Shown here in pieces: positions 58,742-64,000 of a stretch of 64,000 nt of DNA. The notes beneath the pieces were generated by a model. It did no database searches. It saw only the letters and a list, made by a program, of their open reading frames with translations, and was not told where the DNA came from. A program made the translations under genes and the position numbers. The DNA lies in assembly GCA_016181305.1 (NCBI GenBank), contig JACOZN010000012.1, positions 965 to 64,964 on the forward strand, written 5' to 3'. Position 1 is the first letter of the stretch, and each line of letters opens with the position of its first letter. This DNA comes from Candidatus Woesearchaeota archaeon (lineage in GTDB: Archaea > Nanobdellota > Nanobdellia > Woesearchaeales > GW2011-AR4).

Positions 58742-58879
58742 TTGGTGAAACGGCTCGGGCTCTGGTAATAATAAACATATCTGAAAAGGTCACTTACCAC
58801 TGGACATCCTTGCCCAAACTATTTAAACCCCAAAATTATGCTAATTTTTATATAATCTTTATAATCTAAAACCAAAATC

Positions 58880-58887
58880 TTTAAATA
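58880..58887 (+). promoter_or_regulatory. TATA box of nrdJ promoter
   Basis: TTTAAATA lies 20 nt upstream of the first NrdR-like box. Confidence 0.45.
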
Positions 58888-58906
58888 TAACTACTCCCTC
58901 AAAAAT

Positions 58907-58922
58907 ACACTACATATAGTGT
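58907..58922. promoter_or_regulatory. NrdR-box-like palindrome 1 (ACACTACATATAGTGT)
   Basis: 15/16 match to the published NrdR box consensus acaCwAtATaTwGtgt, as I recall it. Confidence 0.55.
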
Positions 58923-58938
58923 ATAGACGACACCCAAT

Positions 58939-58954
58939 ATACTACCTATTGTGT
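58939..58954. promoter_or_regulatory. NrdR-box-like palindrome 2 (ATACTACCTATTGTGT)
   Basis: 13/16 match to the same consensus. The start-to-start distance to box 1 is 32 bp, the usual tandem spacing. Confidence 0.45.
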
Positions 58955-59025
58955 TTTCGGCAAAGTGGTAAAAATAGGGAAAAAAGCAGAATCAGCGTCT
59001 AAAAACATAAAAAAGAGGTTAGAAA

Positions 59026-60765
59026 ATGGAAGCAATACAAAGAATCAGGAAAAGGGACGGCACGGTAGTTGTATTTGACCAGAACAAAATAACAAATGCC
59101 ATATTCAAGGCAGCCCAGTCAGTAGGCGGCAAGGACAGGAAAATTGCACAGCAGCTGAGCGACAGGGTAGTTGAAGAGCTTGAAAAGCTTGGAAAAACAG
59201 CCCCTTCTGTTGAGGAAATCCAGGACATTGTGGAAAAGGTCCTTATTGGGCAGGGTCATGCCTCTACAGCAAAAGCTTACATTCTTTACAGGCAGCAAAG
59301 GTCCGAAGTCAGGAAAGAAAAGCAGCTGGTTCTGGAAAAGGAAGAGATTGACGAGGTTGACAAAAGGTTTGATGTAAACGCGTTGAGGGTTTTAAAGGCA
59401 AGATACCTGAGAAAAGATGCGACTGGAAAATTGACAGAAACCCCAAAGCAGCTGTTCACAAGGGTTGCTGTCCATGCTGCACTGCCTGACTTGTTCTATG
59501 ACAAGAGAGTTTTTGATATCGAAAGCAGGCAGCCGGAAAACGAGCCGGAAAGCTTCAGCCCTGTTGCAAACGAAGATAAATACAGCATTGGCAATTACAT
59601 TCTGAACAGGTATCATCTCGAAGCGCTGAAGAGAATGTACGACAGGTTCAACGACAACAAACAAATGCGTGTTTCATGGAGCAAGTTCTTTGACATGATT
59701 AAAAAAGGTGAATTCAACAATTACGAGAACAATGTTGACGAGCTTTACAATCTGATGACTCACAAGCTCTTCATGCCAAACACCCCTGCAATTGCAAATT
59801 TTGGCAATCCCTTGGGCATGGGATCCGCTTGTTTTGTGCTCCGTGTGCCAGATTCAATCGAAGGTATAATGGAAGCCCTAAAGAGCACCGCAATTGTTTT
59901 TAAAGCTGGTGGCGGAATGGGCTACAACTTCAGTGAATTAAGACCAGAAGGAGACTTTGTGTCCTCAACAGGAGGAGTAGCTTCAGGACCATTGAGCTTT
60001 ATGCGATTGTTTGACACAATGACAGAGGTGATAAAACAAGGCGGCATCAGGAGAGGCGCAAATATGGGCATTTTAAACTCCAACCATCCTGACATTGAGA
60101 AATTTATAACAGCAAAGGACGGCAACAAGGCATTGAGAAACTTCAACATAAGCGTATTGATAATGTCTGACTTTTGGGACTATTATGGCAAGAACGAGCC
60201 ATATCCATTGGTTAACCCGAAAGACGGCAAGGTTGTAAAGTATGTAAATCCAAGAGTGCTGTTTGACAAGATTGTCTACCAGGCATGGGAATCAGCAGAG
60301 CCCGGGGTCATCTTTTTTGACAAGGTGAATGAGTACAACCCTTTCTTTGAGCATCTTGGACCAATTGTAACAACTAATCCCTGCGGAGAAGTTTTATTGT
60401 ATCCAAACGAGCCATGCAACCTAGGCTCAATCAATGTGTGGGCTTTTGCAAGGACTGACTATGACGGAAACAATTATGTTGACTGGGAAAGCTTAAAGAT
60501 TGTTGTAAAAAGTTGCACAAGGTTCCTCGACAATGTCATTGATGTCAATAACTTCCCGTTAAAAGCAATTGAGGGGATGAGCTTAGCCACAAGAAAAATT
60601 GGGCTGGGGGTTATGGGTGTTGGCGACTTGCTTTACGAATTAAGATTGCCTTATAATACAGAGGAAGGCAGGAAGTTCATGGAGCAGTTGATTGAATTCA
60701 TAGCCTATTGGAGCAAAGTTGAAAGCATTGAGCTTGCAAAAGCAAGTAAGGGGGGCTTACCTTAA
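59026..60765 (+). CDS. nrdJ: adenosylcobalamin-dependent (class II) ribonucleotide reductase, N-terminal fragment with ATP-cone
   Basis: ATP-cone (IRKRDGTVVVFDQNKITNAI), then NTPAIANFG, CFVL, GGGMGYNFSELRPEGD, TNPCGE. It terminates just after a G6 run. Confidence 0.85.
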   Translation: MEAIQRIRKRDGTVVVFDQNKITNAIFKAAQSVGGKDRKIAQQLSDRVVEELEKLGKTAPSVEEIQDIVEKVLIGQGHASTAKAYILYRQQRSEVRKEKQLVLEKEEIDEVDKRFDVNALRVLKARYLRKDATGKLTETPKQLFTRVAVHAALPDLFYDKRVFDIESRQPENEPESFSPVANEDKYSIGNYILNRYHLEALKRMYDRFNDNKQMRVSWSKFFDMIKKGEFNNYENNVDELYNLMTHKLFMPNTPAIANFGNPLGMGSACFVLRVPDSIEGIMEALKSTAIVFKAGGGMGYNFSELRPEGDFVSSTGGVASGPLSFMRLFDTMTEVIKQGGIRRGANMGILNSNHPDIEKFITAKDGNKALRNFNISVLIMSDFWDYYGKNEPYPLVNPKDGKVVKYVNPRVLFDKIVYQAWESAEPGVIFFDKVNEYNPFFEHLGPIVTTNPCGEVLLYPNEPCNLGSINVWAFARTDYDGNNYVDWESLKIVVKSCTRFLDNVIDVNNFPLKAIEGMSLATRKIGLGVMGVGDLLYELRLPYNTEEGRKFMEQLIEFIAYWSKVESIELAKASKGGLP

Positions 60766-61531
60766 GGATGAGCAGCACTTTGACTGGGGCAGGCTCGCTG
60801 AAGATGTAAAAAAGTATGGAATAAGGAATGGCTACACAACAATAATTGCGCCGACAGGCAGCATTTCAATGATTGCAGGCTGCTCGTCAGGCATGGAGCC
60901 AGTCTACTCACTTGTTTTTGAGAAAAATGTCAAGGTTGGAAGCTTTTATTATGTGGACCCTGCTGCTGAAAAAGTGCTGAGGGAAGAAGGCCTGCTCAAC
61001 GACAAGCTGATGGAAGACATCAACGAGCACAAAGGCAGCATACAGATGATTGAGTACGTGCCTGAAACTATAAGAAGGGCATTGGTGACAGCAATGGATA
61101 TAACTCCTGAAGAGCATATAAGGGCGCTTGCCTCATTCCAGAAATGGGTTGACTCAAGCATTTCAAAAACAAACAACTTCCCTGCAGACGCAACTCTGGA
61201 GCACATGAGGGACAGCTACATTTTGGCTTACAAGCTTGGCTGCAAGGACGTAACTGTCTTCAGAGACAGCAGCATAAAGGATCAGGTGCTTGTTGCCCCA
61301 AAAGCCAAGGAGAAGAAGGAAGAATCCAAAATGGAAGTTGACATAAAGCCTGAAATGAAAAAAATGATAAAGGAATCCGAAAGCGGGCTGGTTTTTGCTA
61401 ACGGCAACGGAAGTGAGGCAAAGCCCACATCAAAATATACAATAAAGAACTGCCCTGAATGCGGCACAAAACTTGAGTTAAAAGAAGGCTGCCTGCACTG
61501 CCCGGGCTGCGGCTGGGGCTTGTGCATTTAA
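60719..61531 (+). CDS. nrdJ: class II ribonucleotide reductase, C-terminal fragment (continues previous ORF after a frameshift near 60750-60755)
   Basis: GIRNGYTTIIAPTGSISMIAGCSSGMEPVYSLVF, KTNNFP, and a C-terminal Zn ribbon CPECG...CPGCG. The true continuation starts at ...GAYLKDEQ. Confidence 0.8.
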   Translation: MKALSLQKQVRGAYLKDEQHFDWGRLAEDVKKYGIRNGYTTIIAPTGSISMIAGCSSGMEPVYSLVFEKNVKVGSFYYVDPAAEKVLREEGLLNDKLMEDINEHKGSIQMIEYVPETIRRALVTAMDITPEEHIRALASFQKWVDSSISKTNNFPADATLEHMRDSYILAYKLGCKDVTVFRDSSIKDQVLVAPKAKEKKEESKMEVDIKPEMKKMIKESESGLVFANGNGSEAKPTSKYTIKNCPECGTKLELKEGCLHCPGCGWGLCI

Positions 61532-61854: not shown

Positions 61855-61972
61855 CGAAATCAAGAGATTTCGCGGACACAATCAAAATCGAAGATTTTGA
61901 TGTGCAGAAAATTTGAAAAATTTTCTCGCACAGAAAATTGGAAAGCAATTTTCTTGTGCCGCCGAGCACAAG
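61855..61972 (+). repeat. array of five contiguous short hairpins/palindromes upstream of adenosyltransferase gene
   Basis: CGAAATC-aaga-GATTTCG (61855-72); ATCAAAATC-gaa-GATTTTGAT (61881-901); TGTGCAGAAAATTT-gaa-AAATTTTCTcGCACA (61901-32); AGAAAATTG-gaaag-CAATTTTCT (61932-54); CTTGTGC-cgccga-GCACAAG (61953-72). Confidence 0.6.
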
Positions 61973-62016
61973 ATTTGCGAAGCGGATTGAAAAAATTAAA
62001 ACAAATTTCAAATAAA

Positions 62017-62622
62017 ATGGCTTTAACAAAAATAAAGAATGAAATCAAGGTGAAGGGCGATGACAGCAGGGAAAGCCTCGGGCTAGTCCATGTCATAACA
62101 GGCGACGGCAAGGGCAAGACAACCTCTTCACTTGGAATTGCCGTTAGGGCAGTCGGCAGCAATCTAAGGGTCCATATGATCCAGTTCCTGAAAAGCGGGT
62201 TCACAGGAGAGATTTACTCTGCAAAAAAGCTGGGCTTTGATATAGAGCAGTTCGGCGTTGACGCTATAAAGCAAAAGCAACTGAGCCAGTTTAAGGACGC
62301 AACTGGCACTTTTGTGTTTCATCCTGATGTGCAGGAAAAAGAGGCTGCATTGCTTGGCTGGGAGCATGCAAAAAACACTATCAAGAGCGGAAAATATGAT
62401 GTTGTTATCCTGGATGAGATAAACTGCGTGCTTGCGAAGGAACTTGTGCCGCTGCATGAAGTTCTTGACATTGTAAAAAGCCACGGAAAGGTTGAGATTG
62501 TAATGACGGGAAGGGACGCCCCAAAAGCATTGATTGACGCTGCCGATTACGTCAACATCGTGCAGGGCATAAAGCATCCGTGGCAGAAGGGGATTGTTGC
62601 GAGGAAAGGGATTGAGTATTAA
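62017..62622 (+). CDS. cobA: ATP:cob(I)alamin adenosyltransferase (CobA/CobO/BtuR type)
   Basis: GLVHVITGDGKGKTTSSLGIAVRAVG P-loop, MIQFLKSG, VVILDEINCVL. I chose the internal ATG at 62017 (MALTKIK...), because the ORF track extension upstream covers the hairpin array. Confidence 0.85.
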   Translation: MALTKIKNEIKVKGDDSRESLGLVHVITGDGKGKTTSSLGIAVRAVGSNLRVHMIQFLKSGFTGEIYSAKKLGFDIEQFGVDAIKQKQLSQFKDATGTFVFHPDVQEKEAALLGWEHAKNTIKSGKYDVVILDEINCVLAKELVPLHEVLDIVKSHGKVEIVMTGRDAPKALIDAADYVNIVQGIKHPWQKGIVARKGIEY

Positions 62623-62874
62623 TTTGATTACTTCTTTTTAAATTGGAAATAAGAGTATACAAAATAATAAATAATGGGTATTATTATTGCCAATACTAAA
62701 ATAATAAAATCATAGTAACAATAACTTGGTACAGCTCATTCTATTTCAGAAGTGCATCCTATCACAGTGCAATTTCTTAACAGATTTAAAATTAGACGAT
62801 ATAATATAAAGAGCACTATTAATGTAGAAATTGTTTTAAATATAGTTGGTTTTAAAAATCCTTTCCACTCCATT

Positions 62875-63153
62875 TCAGATCATCTGCTCAATAACCCTAG
62901 CCATCTTGAAATCATCATGAGTCAAGCCGTTTGCCTCGTAAGTTGTTAGATGGATGGCCACTATGGTGTTTTTAATGGTGATGTCGGGAAAATGGCGCTG
63001 CCTTTCAGCTTCTTCGCCAACCTTATGAACAAATTCCATTGCCTCGTTGAAGCTGTTGAAATGAAACTCTTTGGTTATGCCGTTGCCAAACATTTCCCAT
63101 CCTTGAAGCTCTTCAAGCCTTTCATGGATGTCCTTGATGGATAAGTGCTCCAT
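62875..63153 (-). CDS. pterin-4-alpha-carbinolamine dehydratase (PCD/DCoH family)
   Basis: 92 aa. LQGWE..., FNSFNEAMEFV, RHFPDITIKNTIVAIHLTTYEANGLTHDDFKMA matches the HHPD...L-T-H...G-L-T-x-x-D pattern. Confidence 0.85.
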   Translation of the reverse strand: MEHLSIKDIHERLEELQGWEMFGNGITKEFHFNSFNEAMEFVHKVGEEAERQRHFPDITIKNTIVAIHLTTYEANGLTHDDFKMARVIEQMI

Positions 63154-63237
63154 ACTGCACCCTTTAAATTGATTTTATATAAATTTTGTGATAATATTTA
63201 TAAACAAAAATAGATAATCTATACTAATGTATTTGGT

Positions 63238-63597
63238 TTGAAGGTGTCTGAGCGTGTTGCAAACTATTTATTCCTCACTTTTGGAAAAGAGCACCATGAC
63301 TTGGCTTTGCAAGAGATAAAGGAAGCCAAAAATCCAGAAGAAAATACGGCTGGATTGTACCATTTTGCTGTTGAGTTTGAGAATCTTAAGCAATTGGCGG
63401 AGATTTACTTCAGGCTGAAAAGATTAAAAGTCCGATTCTCGCCTGTCAACCATGGGATAAGCAAAACTATTTATTTTGAGGACCCTGACGGCAACGGAAT
63501 AGAGGTTTATGTTGATACTAGGAATGAAAGAAAGGAGTGGAAAGGAATGTCATCTTTCATACAAGAAGAGGATTTTGAAAAATGGCTGAAAAAATAA
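63238..63597 (+). CDS. VOC (glyoxalase/extradiol dioxygenase-like) family fragment
   Basis: GKEHHDLAL, GLYHFAVEF, IYFEDPDGNGIEVY. It has a TTG start and appears to lack the N-terminal beta-alpha-beta module. Confidence 0.5.
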   Translation: MKVSERVANYLFLTFGKEHHDLALQEIKEAKNPEENTAGLYHFAVEFENLKQLAEIYFRLKRLKVRFSPVNHGISKTIYFEDPDGNGIEVYVDTRNERKEWKGMSSFIQEEDFEKWLKK

Positions 63598-64000
63598 AAC
63601 TATCAAAAAATGCATTGATGATACTTGAGCAGCGCTATCTGAAGAAAAACGATAAAGGCAAAGTAATTGAAAAGCCCGAAGACTTGTTCAGGAGGGTCGC
63701 CAACAACATAGCGCAGGCAGATTCAAAATACAAGAATAGTAAAAAAAACATAAAACAAACAGAGAATGAATTCTACAATTTGATGGCTTCTCTGGACTTT
63801 TTGCCGAACTCTCCAACCTTGTTCAATGCAGGGAGAAAACTGCAGCAATTGGCAGCCTGCTTTGTATTGCCAATTGAGGATGATATACATTCAATCTTCA
63901 AGACTTTGCACGATGCTGCCCTAGTCCACAAGACAGGCGCAGGCACAGGCTTTAATTTCTCAAAATTAAGGCCAAAAGGCGACATGATAGAAAGCGCAGG
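63582..64000 (+). CDS. nrdJ: second class II ribonucleotide reductase (no ATP-cone), 3' end cut by window edge (absent from ORF track)
   Basis: My own translation from the ATG at 63582: MAEKIKLSKNALMILEQRYLKKNDKGKVIEKPEDLFRRVANNIA...LPNSPTLFNAG...ACFVLPIEDD...GAGTGFNFSKLRPKGD. It stays open to the window end. Confidence 0.8.
   Translation, partial: MAEKIKLSKNALMILEQRYLKKNDKGKVIEKPEDLFRRVANNIAQADSKYKNSKKNIKQTENEFYNLMASLDFLPNSPTLFNAGRKLQQLAACFVLPIEDDIHSIFKTLHDAALVHKTGAGTGFNFSKLRPKGDMIESA

What the first reader, a model, noticed from the sequence alone, without database searches (positions are those of the whole stretch)
58880..58954. Bacterial-type tandem NrdR boxes in front of an archaeal nrdJ
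ACACTACATATAGTGT (58907-58922) matches the NrdR-box consensus acaCwAtATaTwGtgt at 15/16 positions. A second, weaker box, ATACTACCTATTGTGT (13/16), starts exactly 32 bp downstream, which is the characteristic tandem spacing. Both lie just downstream of the TATA box (58880-58887), where a bound repressor would block initiation, and about 70-120 nt upstream of the nrdJ ATG. As far as I know, NrdR (Zn-ribbon plus ATP-cone) is a bacterial regulator. Finding its operator architecture on a TATA-box promoter suggests horizontal acquisition of both gene and regulon, or convergent use.
Basis: partly seen in the sequence, partly recalled or inferred. Interest (0 to 1): 0.6.

Follow-up and report, generated by a model that had tools for sequence, protein, structure and literature searches.

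The report
NrdR operator on an archaeal promoter
A tiny groundwater archaeon (Woesearchaeota) carries a textbook binding site for NrdR, a repressor known mainly from bacteria, over the predicted start of transcription of a gene that makes DNA building blocks; it also has the repressor gene, so this is a real but largely expected control switch in an unusual host.

Summary
Box 1 (58907-58922) differs from the NrdR-box consensus at 1 of 16 positions and box 2 (58939-58954) at 3 of 16. The linker is 16 bp. A matrix built only from relatives scores the boxes at 25.2 and 22.5 bits; the next best site in the 1.07-Mb genome scores 14.2.

The refutation conditions were tested and not met:
- The genome encodes a full NrdR: 150 aa, 197 bits against a cut-off of 125, 49% identical to E. 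coli NrdR, with the Zn cysteines and DNA-contact residues kept.
- The box pair sits in front of the orthologous reductase gene in 28 same-genus genomes. The six positions critical in bacteria are invariant or nearly so.

The host is an archaeon: it has TBP, and its closest named relatives are Woesearchaeota MAGs. The TATA box starts a fixed 26-27 nt before box 1. In this genome TATA boxes start 30 nt before leaderless ATGs, so the predicted transcription start lies inside box 1.

NrdR occurs in 192 of 251 sampled genomes of the phylum, often behind its own box pair. The literature already reports NrdR in 22% of archaeal genomes. This is therefore a new member of a known system, not a new kind. 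Binding and repression are inferred, not shown. As assembled, the regulated nrdJ carries a 53-nt frameshifting deletion.

The parts
58870..58879 (+). BRE-like purine-rich stretch (AACCAAAATC) directly upstream of the TATA box
   Evidence: Conserved as AAAAC[CA]AAAAT in 26 same-genus orthologous promoters. Calling it a TFB-recognition element is inference.
58880..58887 (+). TATA box TTTAAATA
   Evidence: TTTA[AT]ATA is kept at the aligned position across the genus. The genome encodes TBP. Genome-wide, this 8-mer peaks sharply 30 nt upstream of ATGs.
58909..58911 (+). Predicted transcription start (TATA start + 29 to 31), inside box 1
   Evidence: Inferred from the genome-wide TATA-to-ATG distance of 29-31 nt at leaderless genes.
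58907..58922 (+). NrdR box 1, ACACTACATATAGTGT
   Evidence: 15 of 16 matches to the consensus. All six positions critical in bacteria (C4 A6 A8 T9 T11 G13) are present. Scores 25.2 bits on the leave-own-out matrix. A3 C4 A6 T11 G13 T14 are invariant in 26 relatives.
58923..58938 (+). 16-bp linker (ATAGACGACACCCAAT)
   Evidence: The length is 16 in all 34 strict pairs measured and lies within the 15-16 bp optimum (PMC13584703). Within this genus the sequence TAT[AT]GACGAYATCT is also fairly conserved, which is unexplained.
58939..58954 (+). NrdR box 2, ATACTACCTATTGTGT
   Evidence: 13 of 16 matches to the consensus and 5 of 6 critical positions (C instead of A8, a variant shared by 6 of 26 relatives). 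Scores 22.5 bits.
58955..58974 (+). Conserved leader block TTTCGGCAAAGTGGTAAAAA, function unknown
   Evidence: The consensus TTTTCGGnnAAGTAGTAAAAA is kept across the genus. No conserved RNA structure was found and there is no Rfam match.
59013..59018 (+). Shine-Dalgarno-like AAGAGG, 7 nt before the ATG
   Evidence: AAGAGG is conserved in the alignment just upstream of the start codon.
59026..60765 (+). nrdJ1, front part: ATP-cone plus class II RNR (579 aa up to a premature stop)
   Evidence: Pfam ATP-cone, Ribonuc_red_lgN and Ribonuc_red_lgC domains. NCBIfam NrdJ_Z scores 462 bits, above the 400-bit cut-off.
60747..61531 (+). nrdJ1, rear part in another frame. A 53-nt deletion relative to the orthologue lies between 60746 and 60747.
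   Evidence: Alignment with the 93%-identical G015 orthologue, whose frame is open for 860 aa. Whether this is a real deletion or an assembly error could not be checked.
61897..62622 (+). ATP:cob(I)alamin adenosyltransferase (CobA/CobO type), which makes the AdoCbl cofactor of class II RNR
   Evidence: NCBIfam PRK05986 scores 157 bits and TIGR00708 scores 142 bits, both below their cut-offs.
63582..64000 (+). nrdJ2, a second class II RNR without an ATP-cone and without NrdR boxes; it runs off the window
   Evidence: NCBIfam PRK08665. It is 45% identical to nrdJ1. No matrix hit of 8 bits or more lies near it.

Best explanation
The two boxes form the operator of the NrdR repressor encoded elsewhere in the same genome (contig 3, 150 aa: Zn-ribbon plus ATP-cone).

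By analogy with bacterial NrdR, a dATP/ATP-loaded NrdR tetramer would bind both boxes at once when dATP accumulates. Their centres lie three helical turns apart.

In this archaeon the boxes do not cover the TATA/BRE. They span roughly -3 to +45 relative to the predicted transcription start. Bound NrdR would therefore most likely leave TBP and TFB free to bind, but would stop RNA polymerase from being recruited or from clearing the promoter of the ATP-cone-bearing class II ribonucleotide reductase gene nrdJ1.

In this genus the operator is the only NrdR site in the genome. The second, cone-less nrdJ2 and nrdR itself have no boxes.

Shown here:
- the sequence match and its statistics;
- the presence and intactness of NrdR;
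- conservation of the boxes and of their distance to the TATA box;
- the co-occurrence of boxes and NrdR across the phylum.

Inferred, not shown:
- binding;
- dependence on nucleotides;
- the position of the transcription start;
- the step of initiation that is blocked.
For: 1. Match and uniqueness. Box 1 has 1 mismatch and box 2 has 3, with a 16-bp linker. These are the two best sites in the genome, 25.2 and 22.5 bits against 14.2 for the next.
2. Cognate regulator. NrdR scores 197 bits on TIGR00244 (cut-off 124.65) and has Pfam Zn_ribbon_NrdR plus ATP-cone domains. It aligns without gaps to E. coli NrdR (PDB 9fxk, E = 4e-39, 49% identity). C3, C6, C31, C34, D15, R17, R26-29 and R37 are invariant. 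D15 and R17 are the specificity residues in PMC9110341.
3. Conservation. In 26 same-genus orthologous promoters A3, C4, A6, T11, G13 and T14 are invariant or nearly so in both boxes; T9 is kept in 25 of 26 and A8 in 20 of 26. The 19-nt TATA-to-box spacer varies freely. These are the positions shown to be critical in bacteria (PMC13584703).
4. One site per genome. A strict 14-base pattern hits 32 of 41 genus genomes, one site each in all but two. In 28 relatives that site lies just upstream of the RNR gene.
5. Phylum level. NrdR is present in 192 of 251 genomes. The strict pattern hits 40 genomes, against about 10 hits for the reversed control. Of those 40, 39 have NrdR, and at least 20 sites lie 7-213 nt upstream of nrdR itself, again behind a TATA-like box.
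6. Geometry. The TATA box starts 26-27 nt before box 1 throughout the genus. Genome-wide, TATA boxes start 29-31 nt before leaderless ATGs. The transcription start therefore falls at box-1 positions 3-5.
7. Established knowledge (my own). Archaeal repressors bound at or just downstream of the start site, such as MDR1, LrpA and Phr, block RNA polymerase recruitment without displacing TBP or TFB.
Against: - No binding, expression or 5'-end data exist for any archaeal NrdR.
- Box 2 has C at position 8, although bacterial work shows the central dinucleotide is tolerant (PMC13584703).
- As assembled, nrdJ1 in this genome is frameshifted by a 53-nt deletion. In this particular organism the operator may therefore control a broken gene.
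- nrdJ2 and nrdR have no boxes, whereas in the bacteria studied (E. coli, S. coelicolor, P. aeruginosa) NrdR controls every RNR operon, by literature report.
- The linker and a block just after box 2 are also conserved within the genus. A pure NrdR-operator model does not explain this.
Confidence: 0.82

Rival explanations
1. The conserved palindromes act at the RNA level, as hairpins or a riboswitch-like element (for example B12-sensing) in the roughly 116-nt leader of nrdJ1, and not as a DNA operator.
For: The boxes lie in the predicted transcribed leader. The leader is unusually long for a genome dominated by leaderless genes. A further conserved block follows box 2. The enzyme depends on AdoCbl.
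Against: - There is no Rfam match in the window at gathering score.
- RNAalifold on 17 leaders gives -0.35 kcal/mol and 3 pairs, none compensatory.
- The variable palindrome pairs (2,15), (5,12) and (7,10) are complementary in under half of the sequences, while the invariant positions are exactly the protein-contact positions of NrdR boxes.
- The same box pairs occur in front of nrdR genes with quite different flanks.
Confidence: 0.04
2. The boxes are bound by a different, unidentified archaeal transcription factor that happens to recognise a similar palindrome. The NrdR homologue would then have another role.
For: No archaeal NrdR has been tested. nrdR in this genus has no boxes of its own and sits with dNMP-kinase-like and dCMP deaminase genes.
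Against: The box consensus, the six critical positions, the 16-bp linker, the RNR target and the conserved D15/R17 recognition residues all match the bacterial system. In the phylum sample 39 of 40 genomes with strict box pairs have NrdR, against a base rate of 76%. At least 20 pairs lie directly upstream of nrdR.
Confidence: 0.06
3. In this particular genome the operator is a relic. nrdJ1 is a pseudogene (53-nt frameshifting deletion), dNTP supply rests on the unregulated nrdJ2, and the boxes persist only because the loss is recent.
For: The deletion lies between 60746 and 60747 relative to the 93%-identical orthologue, whose frame is open for 860 aa. nrdJ2 lies 2 kb downstream.
Against: - The promoter, operator and both halves of the gene are otherwise intact and close to intact orthologues.
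- The deletion is flanked by AAGGGG-like repeats, which is also what an assembly collapse would look like.
- This rival concerns only current use in this MAG, not what the element is.
Confidence: 0.3
4. The match is a chance AT-rich palindrome pair in a promoter region.
For: The region is AT-rich. The reversed-pattern control also gives an occasional hit.
Against: The boxes are the best and second-best sites in the genome, with the exact spacing, in front of an RNR gene, and conserved in 28 relatives while the neighbouring spacer diverges.
Confidence: 0.01

Closest known systems
Bacterial NrdR and NrdR-box operators (S. coelicolor nrdRJ and nrdAB, PDB 7P3F; E. coli nrdAB, nrdHIEF and nrdDG; PMC9110341, PMC12176259, PMC13584703)
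   Same: - Same regulator family, with a full-length match.
- Same 16-bp partial palindrome with C4 A6 A8 T9 T11 G13.
- Same 15-16 bp linker.
- Same kind of target, an RNR gene, here class II as in S. coelicolor nrdRJ.
- The operator overlaps the transcription start.
   Different: - The host uses TBP/TFB and a TATA box instead of sigma-70 -35/-10 elements.
- The operator lies wholly downstream of the TATA box.
- In this genus only one of the two RNR genes carries boxes, and nrdR is not autoregulated.
- Nothing has been tested experimentally in archaea.
Haloarchaeal nrdR-nrdAB and nrdR-nrdBA operons acquired from bacteria (PMC3019208)
   Same: NrdR encoded in an archaeal genome next to RNR genes.
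   Different: In haloarchaea nrdR came with a class I operon in recent, patchy transfers. Here nrdR is unlinked to the RNR gene, regulates a class II enzyme, and is present in about three quarters of a whole DPANN phylum.
Archaeal repressors that bind at or downstream of the start site (MDR1 of Archaeoglobus, LrpA and Phr of Pyrococcus; from my own knowledge)
   Same: The operator is placed between the TATA box and the coding region, over the start site. The expected effect is to block RNA polymerase recruitment while TBP and TFB stay bound.
   Different: These are unrelated protein families (DtxR, Lrp, wHTH). NrdR is a Zn-ribbon plus ATP-cone protein whose DNA binding is set by the dATP/ATP ratio.
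NrdR-NrdD fusion reductases of archaea
   Same: The same Zn-ribbon plus ATP-cone module, and the same box pairs 32 bp apart in the promoter.
   Different: In the fusions the repressor module is part of the class III enzyme it presumably regulates. In this window the regulator is a free-standing protein acting in trans on a class II gene.

Membership tests
NrdR operator (pair of NrdR boxes) | Two 16-bp partially palindromic boxes with the conserved positions C4, A6, A8, T9, T11 and G13 | tested here: met
   Box 1 has 6 of 6 and box 2 has 5 of 6 (C at position 8). The criteria come from PMC13584703.
NrdR operator (pair of NrdR boxes) | Boxes separated by a 15-16 bp linker (alternatively 25-27 bp) | tested here: met
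   The linker is 16 bp here and in all 34 strict pairs measured.
NrdR operator (pair of NrdR boxes) | Located in the promoter of a ribonucleotide reductase (or nrdR) operon, overlapping core promoter or start site | tested here: met
   The boxes lie 72-119 nt upstream of the nrdJ1 ATG and start 27 nt after the start of the TATA box. The predicted start site falls inside box 1. The start site is inferred, not measured.
NrdR operator (pair of NrdR boxes) | Cognate nrdR gene in the same genome | tested here: met
   G000:C3:8070-8510, 197 bits against a cut-off of 124.65.
NrdR operator (pair of NrdR boxes) | Boxes conserved in related genomes at the orthologous gene | tested here: met
   26 of 27 aligned genus promoters keep the pair. 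The 27th (G001) has it 300 nt upstream. The strict pattern lies next to the RNR gene in 28 relatives.
NrdR operator (pair of NrdR boxes) | dATP/ATP-dependent binding of NrdR and repression of the downstream gene | not testable with these tools
   This needs protein-DNA binding assays and transcription assays.
NrdR protein (TIGR00244) | Score above the curated cut-off over the full model | tested here: met
   197 bits, model positions 1-147 of 147.
NrdR protein (TIGR00244) | N-terminal CxxC...CxxC Zn-ribbon followed by an ATP-cone | tested here: met
   PF22811 covers residues 1-42 and PF03477 covers residues 50-136. C3, C6, C31 and C34 are invariant.
NrdR protein (TIGR00244) | DNA-recognition residues D15 and R17 and backbone-contact arginines 26-29 and 37 (S. 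coelicolor numbering, PMC9110341) | tested here: met
   All are invariant in an alignment of 7 Woesearchaeal NrdRs with E. coli NrdR. R12 is Q here.
Archaeal TBP/TFB-dependent promoter | TATA box about 26-27 nt (centre) upstream of the start site, preceded by a purine-rich BRE; TBP encoded in the genome | tested here: inconclusive
   The TBP gene is present. The TATA 8-mer is conserved and, genome-wide, peaks 30 nt before ATGs. The start site of this promoter was not measured.
Cobalamin riboswitch or other Rfam leader element (considered) | Match to a covariance model at gathering score | tested here: not met
   No Rfam family matched anywhere in the window. No conserved structure was found in the leader.

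The most novel reading that the evidence does not exclude
NrdR is not an occasional bacterial import in archaea. It is the core regulator of DNA-precursor synthesis across the DPANN phylum that holds Woesearchaeota and Pacearchaeota. It is mostly vertically kept, was exchanged long ago with the co-occurring Patescibacteria, and has one conserved way of acting on archaeal promoters: a box pair placed a fixed distance downstream of the TATA box, so that it covers the transcription start. Together with the NrdR-NrdD fusions of other archaea, this would make NrdR the first widely distributed, dedicated regulator of dNTP supply described for archaea. It would also offer a clean system for asking how one nucleotide-sensing repressor works on both bacterial and archaeal transcription machineries.
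Probability: 0.5. Interest if true: 0.5.

Novelty: new member of a known kind. Interest (0 to 1): 0.4.

Why it matters
NrdR has been studied only in bacteria, partly as an antibacterial target said to be bacteria-specific. Some recent papers still state that it is absent from archaea (bioRxiv 10.1101/2025.03.28.645925), while others give 22% of archaeal genomes (PMC13584703). The published surveys of NrdR boxes that I read searched bacterial genomes (10.1101/2024.05.27.596032; PMC13584703).

This locus and its relatives give a concrete archaeal operator with a defined position relative to the TATA box and the predicted start site. That makes two questions directly testable: whether NrdR represses TBP/TFB-dependent transcription, and at which step. 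The locus also shows that ultra-small DPANN archaea keep a dedicated control over dNTP synthesis despite genome reduction.

The concept is not surprising, because most archaeal transcription factors are of bacterial type.

Tried and rejected
I therefore had no reads to map the transcription start or to check the 53-nt deletion.
- I used NCBIfam families NF005010 and NF006417 with the named control genomes to guess whether nrdJ1 or nrdJ2 is of archaeal or bacterial type. This was uninformative: both ring in 12 controls and none is over the cut-off.
- The NrdR tree (150 aa, quick method) is poorly resolved, and its bacterial sample is biased towards sequences most like the query. It shows intermixing of DPANN and Patescibacteria but no direction of transfer.
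- I suspected that in nrdR promoters the TATA box lies inside the linker. The alignment of 15 such promoters instead shows a conserved TATA-like box upstream of box 1, so I dropped the idea.
- I looked for a third box 16 bp after box 2 and found none.
- I tested whether the conserved GTAGTA block pairs with box 2. The changes are not compensated.
- I scanned for boxes at nrdR, nrdJ2 and the dCMP deaminase gene in this genome. Nothing scores 8 bits or more near them.
- tblastn for a class III reductase in this assembly found none. The assembly is only 78% complete.

Full report
**What is there.**
- TTTAAATA lies at 58880-58887.
- ACACTACATATAGTGT lies at 58907-58922.
- ATACTACCTATTGTGT lies at 58939-58954, 32 bp downstream start to start, which gives a 16-bp linker.
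- The ATG of a 579-aa open frame is at 59026.

That frame starts with an ATP-cone and continues as a class II (adenosylcobalamin) ribonucleotide reductase. NrdJ_Z scores 462 bits against a cut-off of 400, and Pfam finds ATP-cone, Ribonuc_red_lgN and Ribonuc_red_lgC. Downstream lie the rest of nrdJ in another frame, a CobA-type corrinoid adenosyltransferase, and a second nrdJ without an ATP-cone that runs off the window.

**Is it more than chance?**
- Against ACACWATATATWGTGT, box 1 is the only site in the whole 1.07-Mb genome with 1 mismatch or fewer. Block shuffles give about 0.2 such sites per genome.
- Box 1 and box 2 form the only pair at 3 mismatches or fewer per box that is 16-60 bp apart.
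- A weight matrix built from the boxes of 25 relatives, with this genome left out, scores the two boxes at 25.2 and 22.5 bits. The next best site anywhere in the genome scores 14.2.
- The assembly holds only two RNR genes, nrdJ1 and nrdJ2, and the pair sits in front of one of them.

**The host is an archaeon.**
- The genome encodes TBP. That search rings only in the archaeal control genomes.
- Its NrdR is 85-88% identical to proteins of MAGs titled Candidatus Woesearchaeota archaeon from groundwater. One same-genus genome (G034) is identical at this locus to MAG nzgw54.
- Earlier notes on this genome say the same.

**The regulator exists and looks functional.**
- TIGR00244 finds one full-length NrdR at G000:C3:8070-8510, scoring 197 bits against a cut-off of 124.65.
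- It is 150 aa, with a Zn_ribbon_NrdR domain at residues 1-42 and an ATP-cone at residues 50-136.
- It is followed by a kinase-like gene and a dCMP deaminase gene.
- It aligns without a gap to E. coli NrdR (PDB 9fxk, E = 4e-39, 49% identity).
- The four zinc cysteines are invariant. So are D15 and R17, the residues that PMC9110341 identifies as giving sequence specificity, and the backbone-contact arginines 26-29 and 37.

**The boxes are conserved.** I aligned 280 nt around the start of the orthologous nrdJ from 27 same-genus genomes and 3 from other families. Twenty-six genus sequences share one architecture:
- a purine-rich stretch AAAAC[CA]AAAAT;
- TTTA[AT]ATA;
- a 19-nt spacer that varies freely;
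- box 1, a 16-nt linker and box 2;
- a block TTTTCGGnnAAGTAGTAAAAA;
- a variable leader, AAGAGG and the ATG.

In both boxes A3, A6, T11, G13 and T14 are invariant, and C4 is invariant in box 1 and kept in 25 of 26 sequences in box 2. T9 is kept in 25 of 26 and A8 in 20 of 26. These include all six positions that mutational work in E. coli and S. coelicolor found critical: C4, A6, A8, T9, T11 and G13 (PMC13584703).

A strict 14-base pattern (ACNANNTNTNGT, 20 bases, ACNANNTNTNGT) hits 32 of 41 genus genomes, one site each in all but two. In 28 relatives the hit lies just upstream of the RNR gene located independently. The one promoter that seemed to lack boxes (G001) has them 300 nt upstream.

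**Position relative to the archaeal promoter.** The TATA 8-mer starts 26-27 nt before box 1 throughout the genus. One genome has a 10-nt insertion there, which is one helical turn.

To calibrate the start site without RNA data, I plotted where TTTAWATA lies upstream of the first ATG of 924 long ORFs of this genome. There is a sharp peak at 30 nt: 9, 29 and 14 cases at 29, 30 and 31 nt, against a background of 0-4. This is the signature of leaderless mRNAs that start at the ATG.

Applied here, the start falls at 58909-58911, which is box-1 positions 3-5. The operator then spans about -3 to +45, and the leader is about 116 nt, unusually long for this genome.

In archaea, repressors bound at this position (MDR1, LrpA, Phr; my own knowledge) let TBP and TFB bind but prevent RNA polymerase recruitment. 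I take that as the most likely mechanism. It is inference.

**How general is it?**
- NrdR is present at E <= 1e-20 in 192 of 251 high-quality genomes sampled across the phylum, 184 of them over the curated cut-off. It is over the cut-off in 47 of 61 close relatives.
- The strict box-pair pattern hits 40 of the 251 genomes, against about 10 hits for the reversed control.
- Of those 40 genomes, 39 have NrdR, compared with a base rate of 76%.
- By comparing coordinates, at least 20 of the pairs lie 7-213 nt upstream of nrdR itself.
- An alignment of 15 such promoters from other families and orders shows the same order of parts: a TATA-like box, a short spacer, box 1, a 16-bp linker, box 2, then the MKCPYC start of NrdR.

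The system is therefore old and widespread in this phylum. In many lineages nrdR is autoregulated, as in S. coelicolor. In this genus it is not, and the single operator sits on nrdJ1.

**Origin.** A tree of 110 NrdRs is poorly resolved. It places DPANN sequences (Woesearchaeota, Pacearchaeota, Nanohalarchaeota, Micrarchaeia) in one weakly supported cluster (SH-aLRT 85) together with Patescibacteria (Levyibacteriota, Woesebacteria, Gottesmanbacteria), Elusimicrobia, Spirochaetes and Chloroflexota. The clade of this genus (100) is sister (83) to a mostly Levyibacteriota group.

Levyibacteriota NrdRs are as similar to this protein (55-62% identity) as NrdRs of other Woesearchaeal families (55-60%). 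This fits an exchange between domains among co-occurring ultra-small organisms. The direction is not resolved, and the bacterial sample is biased towards the best matches.

Convergence is excluded, because the proteins are plainly homologous.

**Rivals.**
- An RNA-level element is not supported. There is no Rfam match and no conserved structure: -0.35 kcal/mol and no compensatory pair in 17 leaders. The variable palindrome positions are complementary in under half of the sequences.
- A different factor binding a look-alike site is unparsimonious, given the match in every defining feature and the co-occurrence with NrdR.
- One caveat is real. In this assembly nrdJ1 lacks 53 nt between 60746 and 60747 relative to the 93%-identical orthologue, whose frame is open for 860 aa. 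This shifts the frame.

**Known or new?**
[quoted passage not shown] - Haloarchaeal nrdR-nrdAB operons were described in 2010 (PMC3019208).
- Another group still writes that NrdR is absent from archaea (10.1101/2025.03.28.645925).
- The box surveys I read searched bacterial genomes only (10.1101/2024.05.27.596032; PMC13584703).
- I found no paper that combines NrdR with DPANN or Woesearchaeota, or that places boxes relative to a TATA box.

The element is therefore a new, well-supported member of a known system in a little-studied host. It adds a defined promoter geometry. It is not a new kind of system.

**In passing.** In other families of the order, NrdR is fused in one frame to a class III reductase: Zn-ribbon, two ATP-cone stretches and NRDD. 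A database search found 266 protein clusters matching the fused N-terminal module. All 120 listed carry the Zn-ribbon, ATP-cone and NRDD domains (four with an extra domain), and the named ones come from Woesearchaeota, Nanoarchaeia, Aenigmarchaeota and Asgard/Heimdallarchaeota. One such gene (G164) has a strict box pair 45 nt upstream. Earlier agents of this scan had already reported such fusions in other genomes. I found no description of them in the papers searched.

Noticed in passing
L081:337-2934 (-) = G164:C1; L083:123-2636 (+) = G075:C11 (not in the window): NrdR is fused in one open frame to a class III reductase (Zn_ribbon_NrdR, two ATP-cone stretches and NRDD; 865 and 837 aa). A database search gave 266 clusters at E <= 1e-10. 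All 120 listed have the Zn-ribbon, ATP-cone and NRDD domains (four with an extra domain), and the named ones come from Woesearchaeota, Nanoarchaeia, Aenigmarchaeota and Asgard/Heimdallarchaeota. The G164 gene has a strict NrdR box pair 45 nt upstream. Earlier agents of this scan reported such fusions elsewhere. I found no published description.
   Followed up: partly
window 60746/60747 (nrdJ1): nrdJ1 lacks 53 nt (about 18 codons, ...GNLPYYNKSFYKDGRLPI...) relative to the 93%-identical orthologue, which splits it into 579-aa and 270-aa frames. The junction is flanked by AAGGGG-like repeats.
   Followed up: partly
window 58955-58974 and 58923-58938: A block just after box 2 (TTTTCGGnnAAGTAGTAAAAA) and much of the linker (TAT[AT]GACGAYATCT) are conserved across the genus, although bacterial NrdR linkers are not sequence-conserved. 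No RNA structure or third box explains them.
   Followed up: partly
whole genome G000: TTTAWATA starts exactly 29-31 nt before the first ATG of about 52 long ORFs. This organism therefore appears to use mostly leaderless mRNAs. The roughly 116-nt nrdJ1 leader is an exception.
   Followed up: partly
G000:C9:2239-2478 (-) (L002): A stand-alone ATP-cone ORF of about 105-115 aa, with no Zn-ribbon and no reductase body. It is found in this genome and in most same-genus relatives as a weak second hit to the NrdR model. Its function is unknown.
   Followed up: no
window 61897-64000: nrdJ1, a CobA-type corrinoid adenosyltransferase, a small VOC/glyoxalase-fold ORF (63238-63597) and a second, cone-less nrdJ2 form a B12-dependent dNTP module. 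Only the cone-bearing copy carries NrdR boxes, so transcriptional and allosteric dATP control appear together on one paralogue and are both absent from the other.
   Followed up: partly
L001:1950-2944 (G000:C3): In this genus nrdR is followed, with overlapping stops and starts, by a P-loop kinase-like gene (185 aa) and a dCMP deaminase gene (145 aa). This looks like a small dNTP-metabolism operon without NrdR boxes.
   Followed up: no
L036-L058 (orthologues of nrdJ1): Several orthologous nrdJ genes have open frames of 1200-1830 aa instead of about 860 aa, presumably because of inteins. This was not examined.
   Followed up: no
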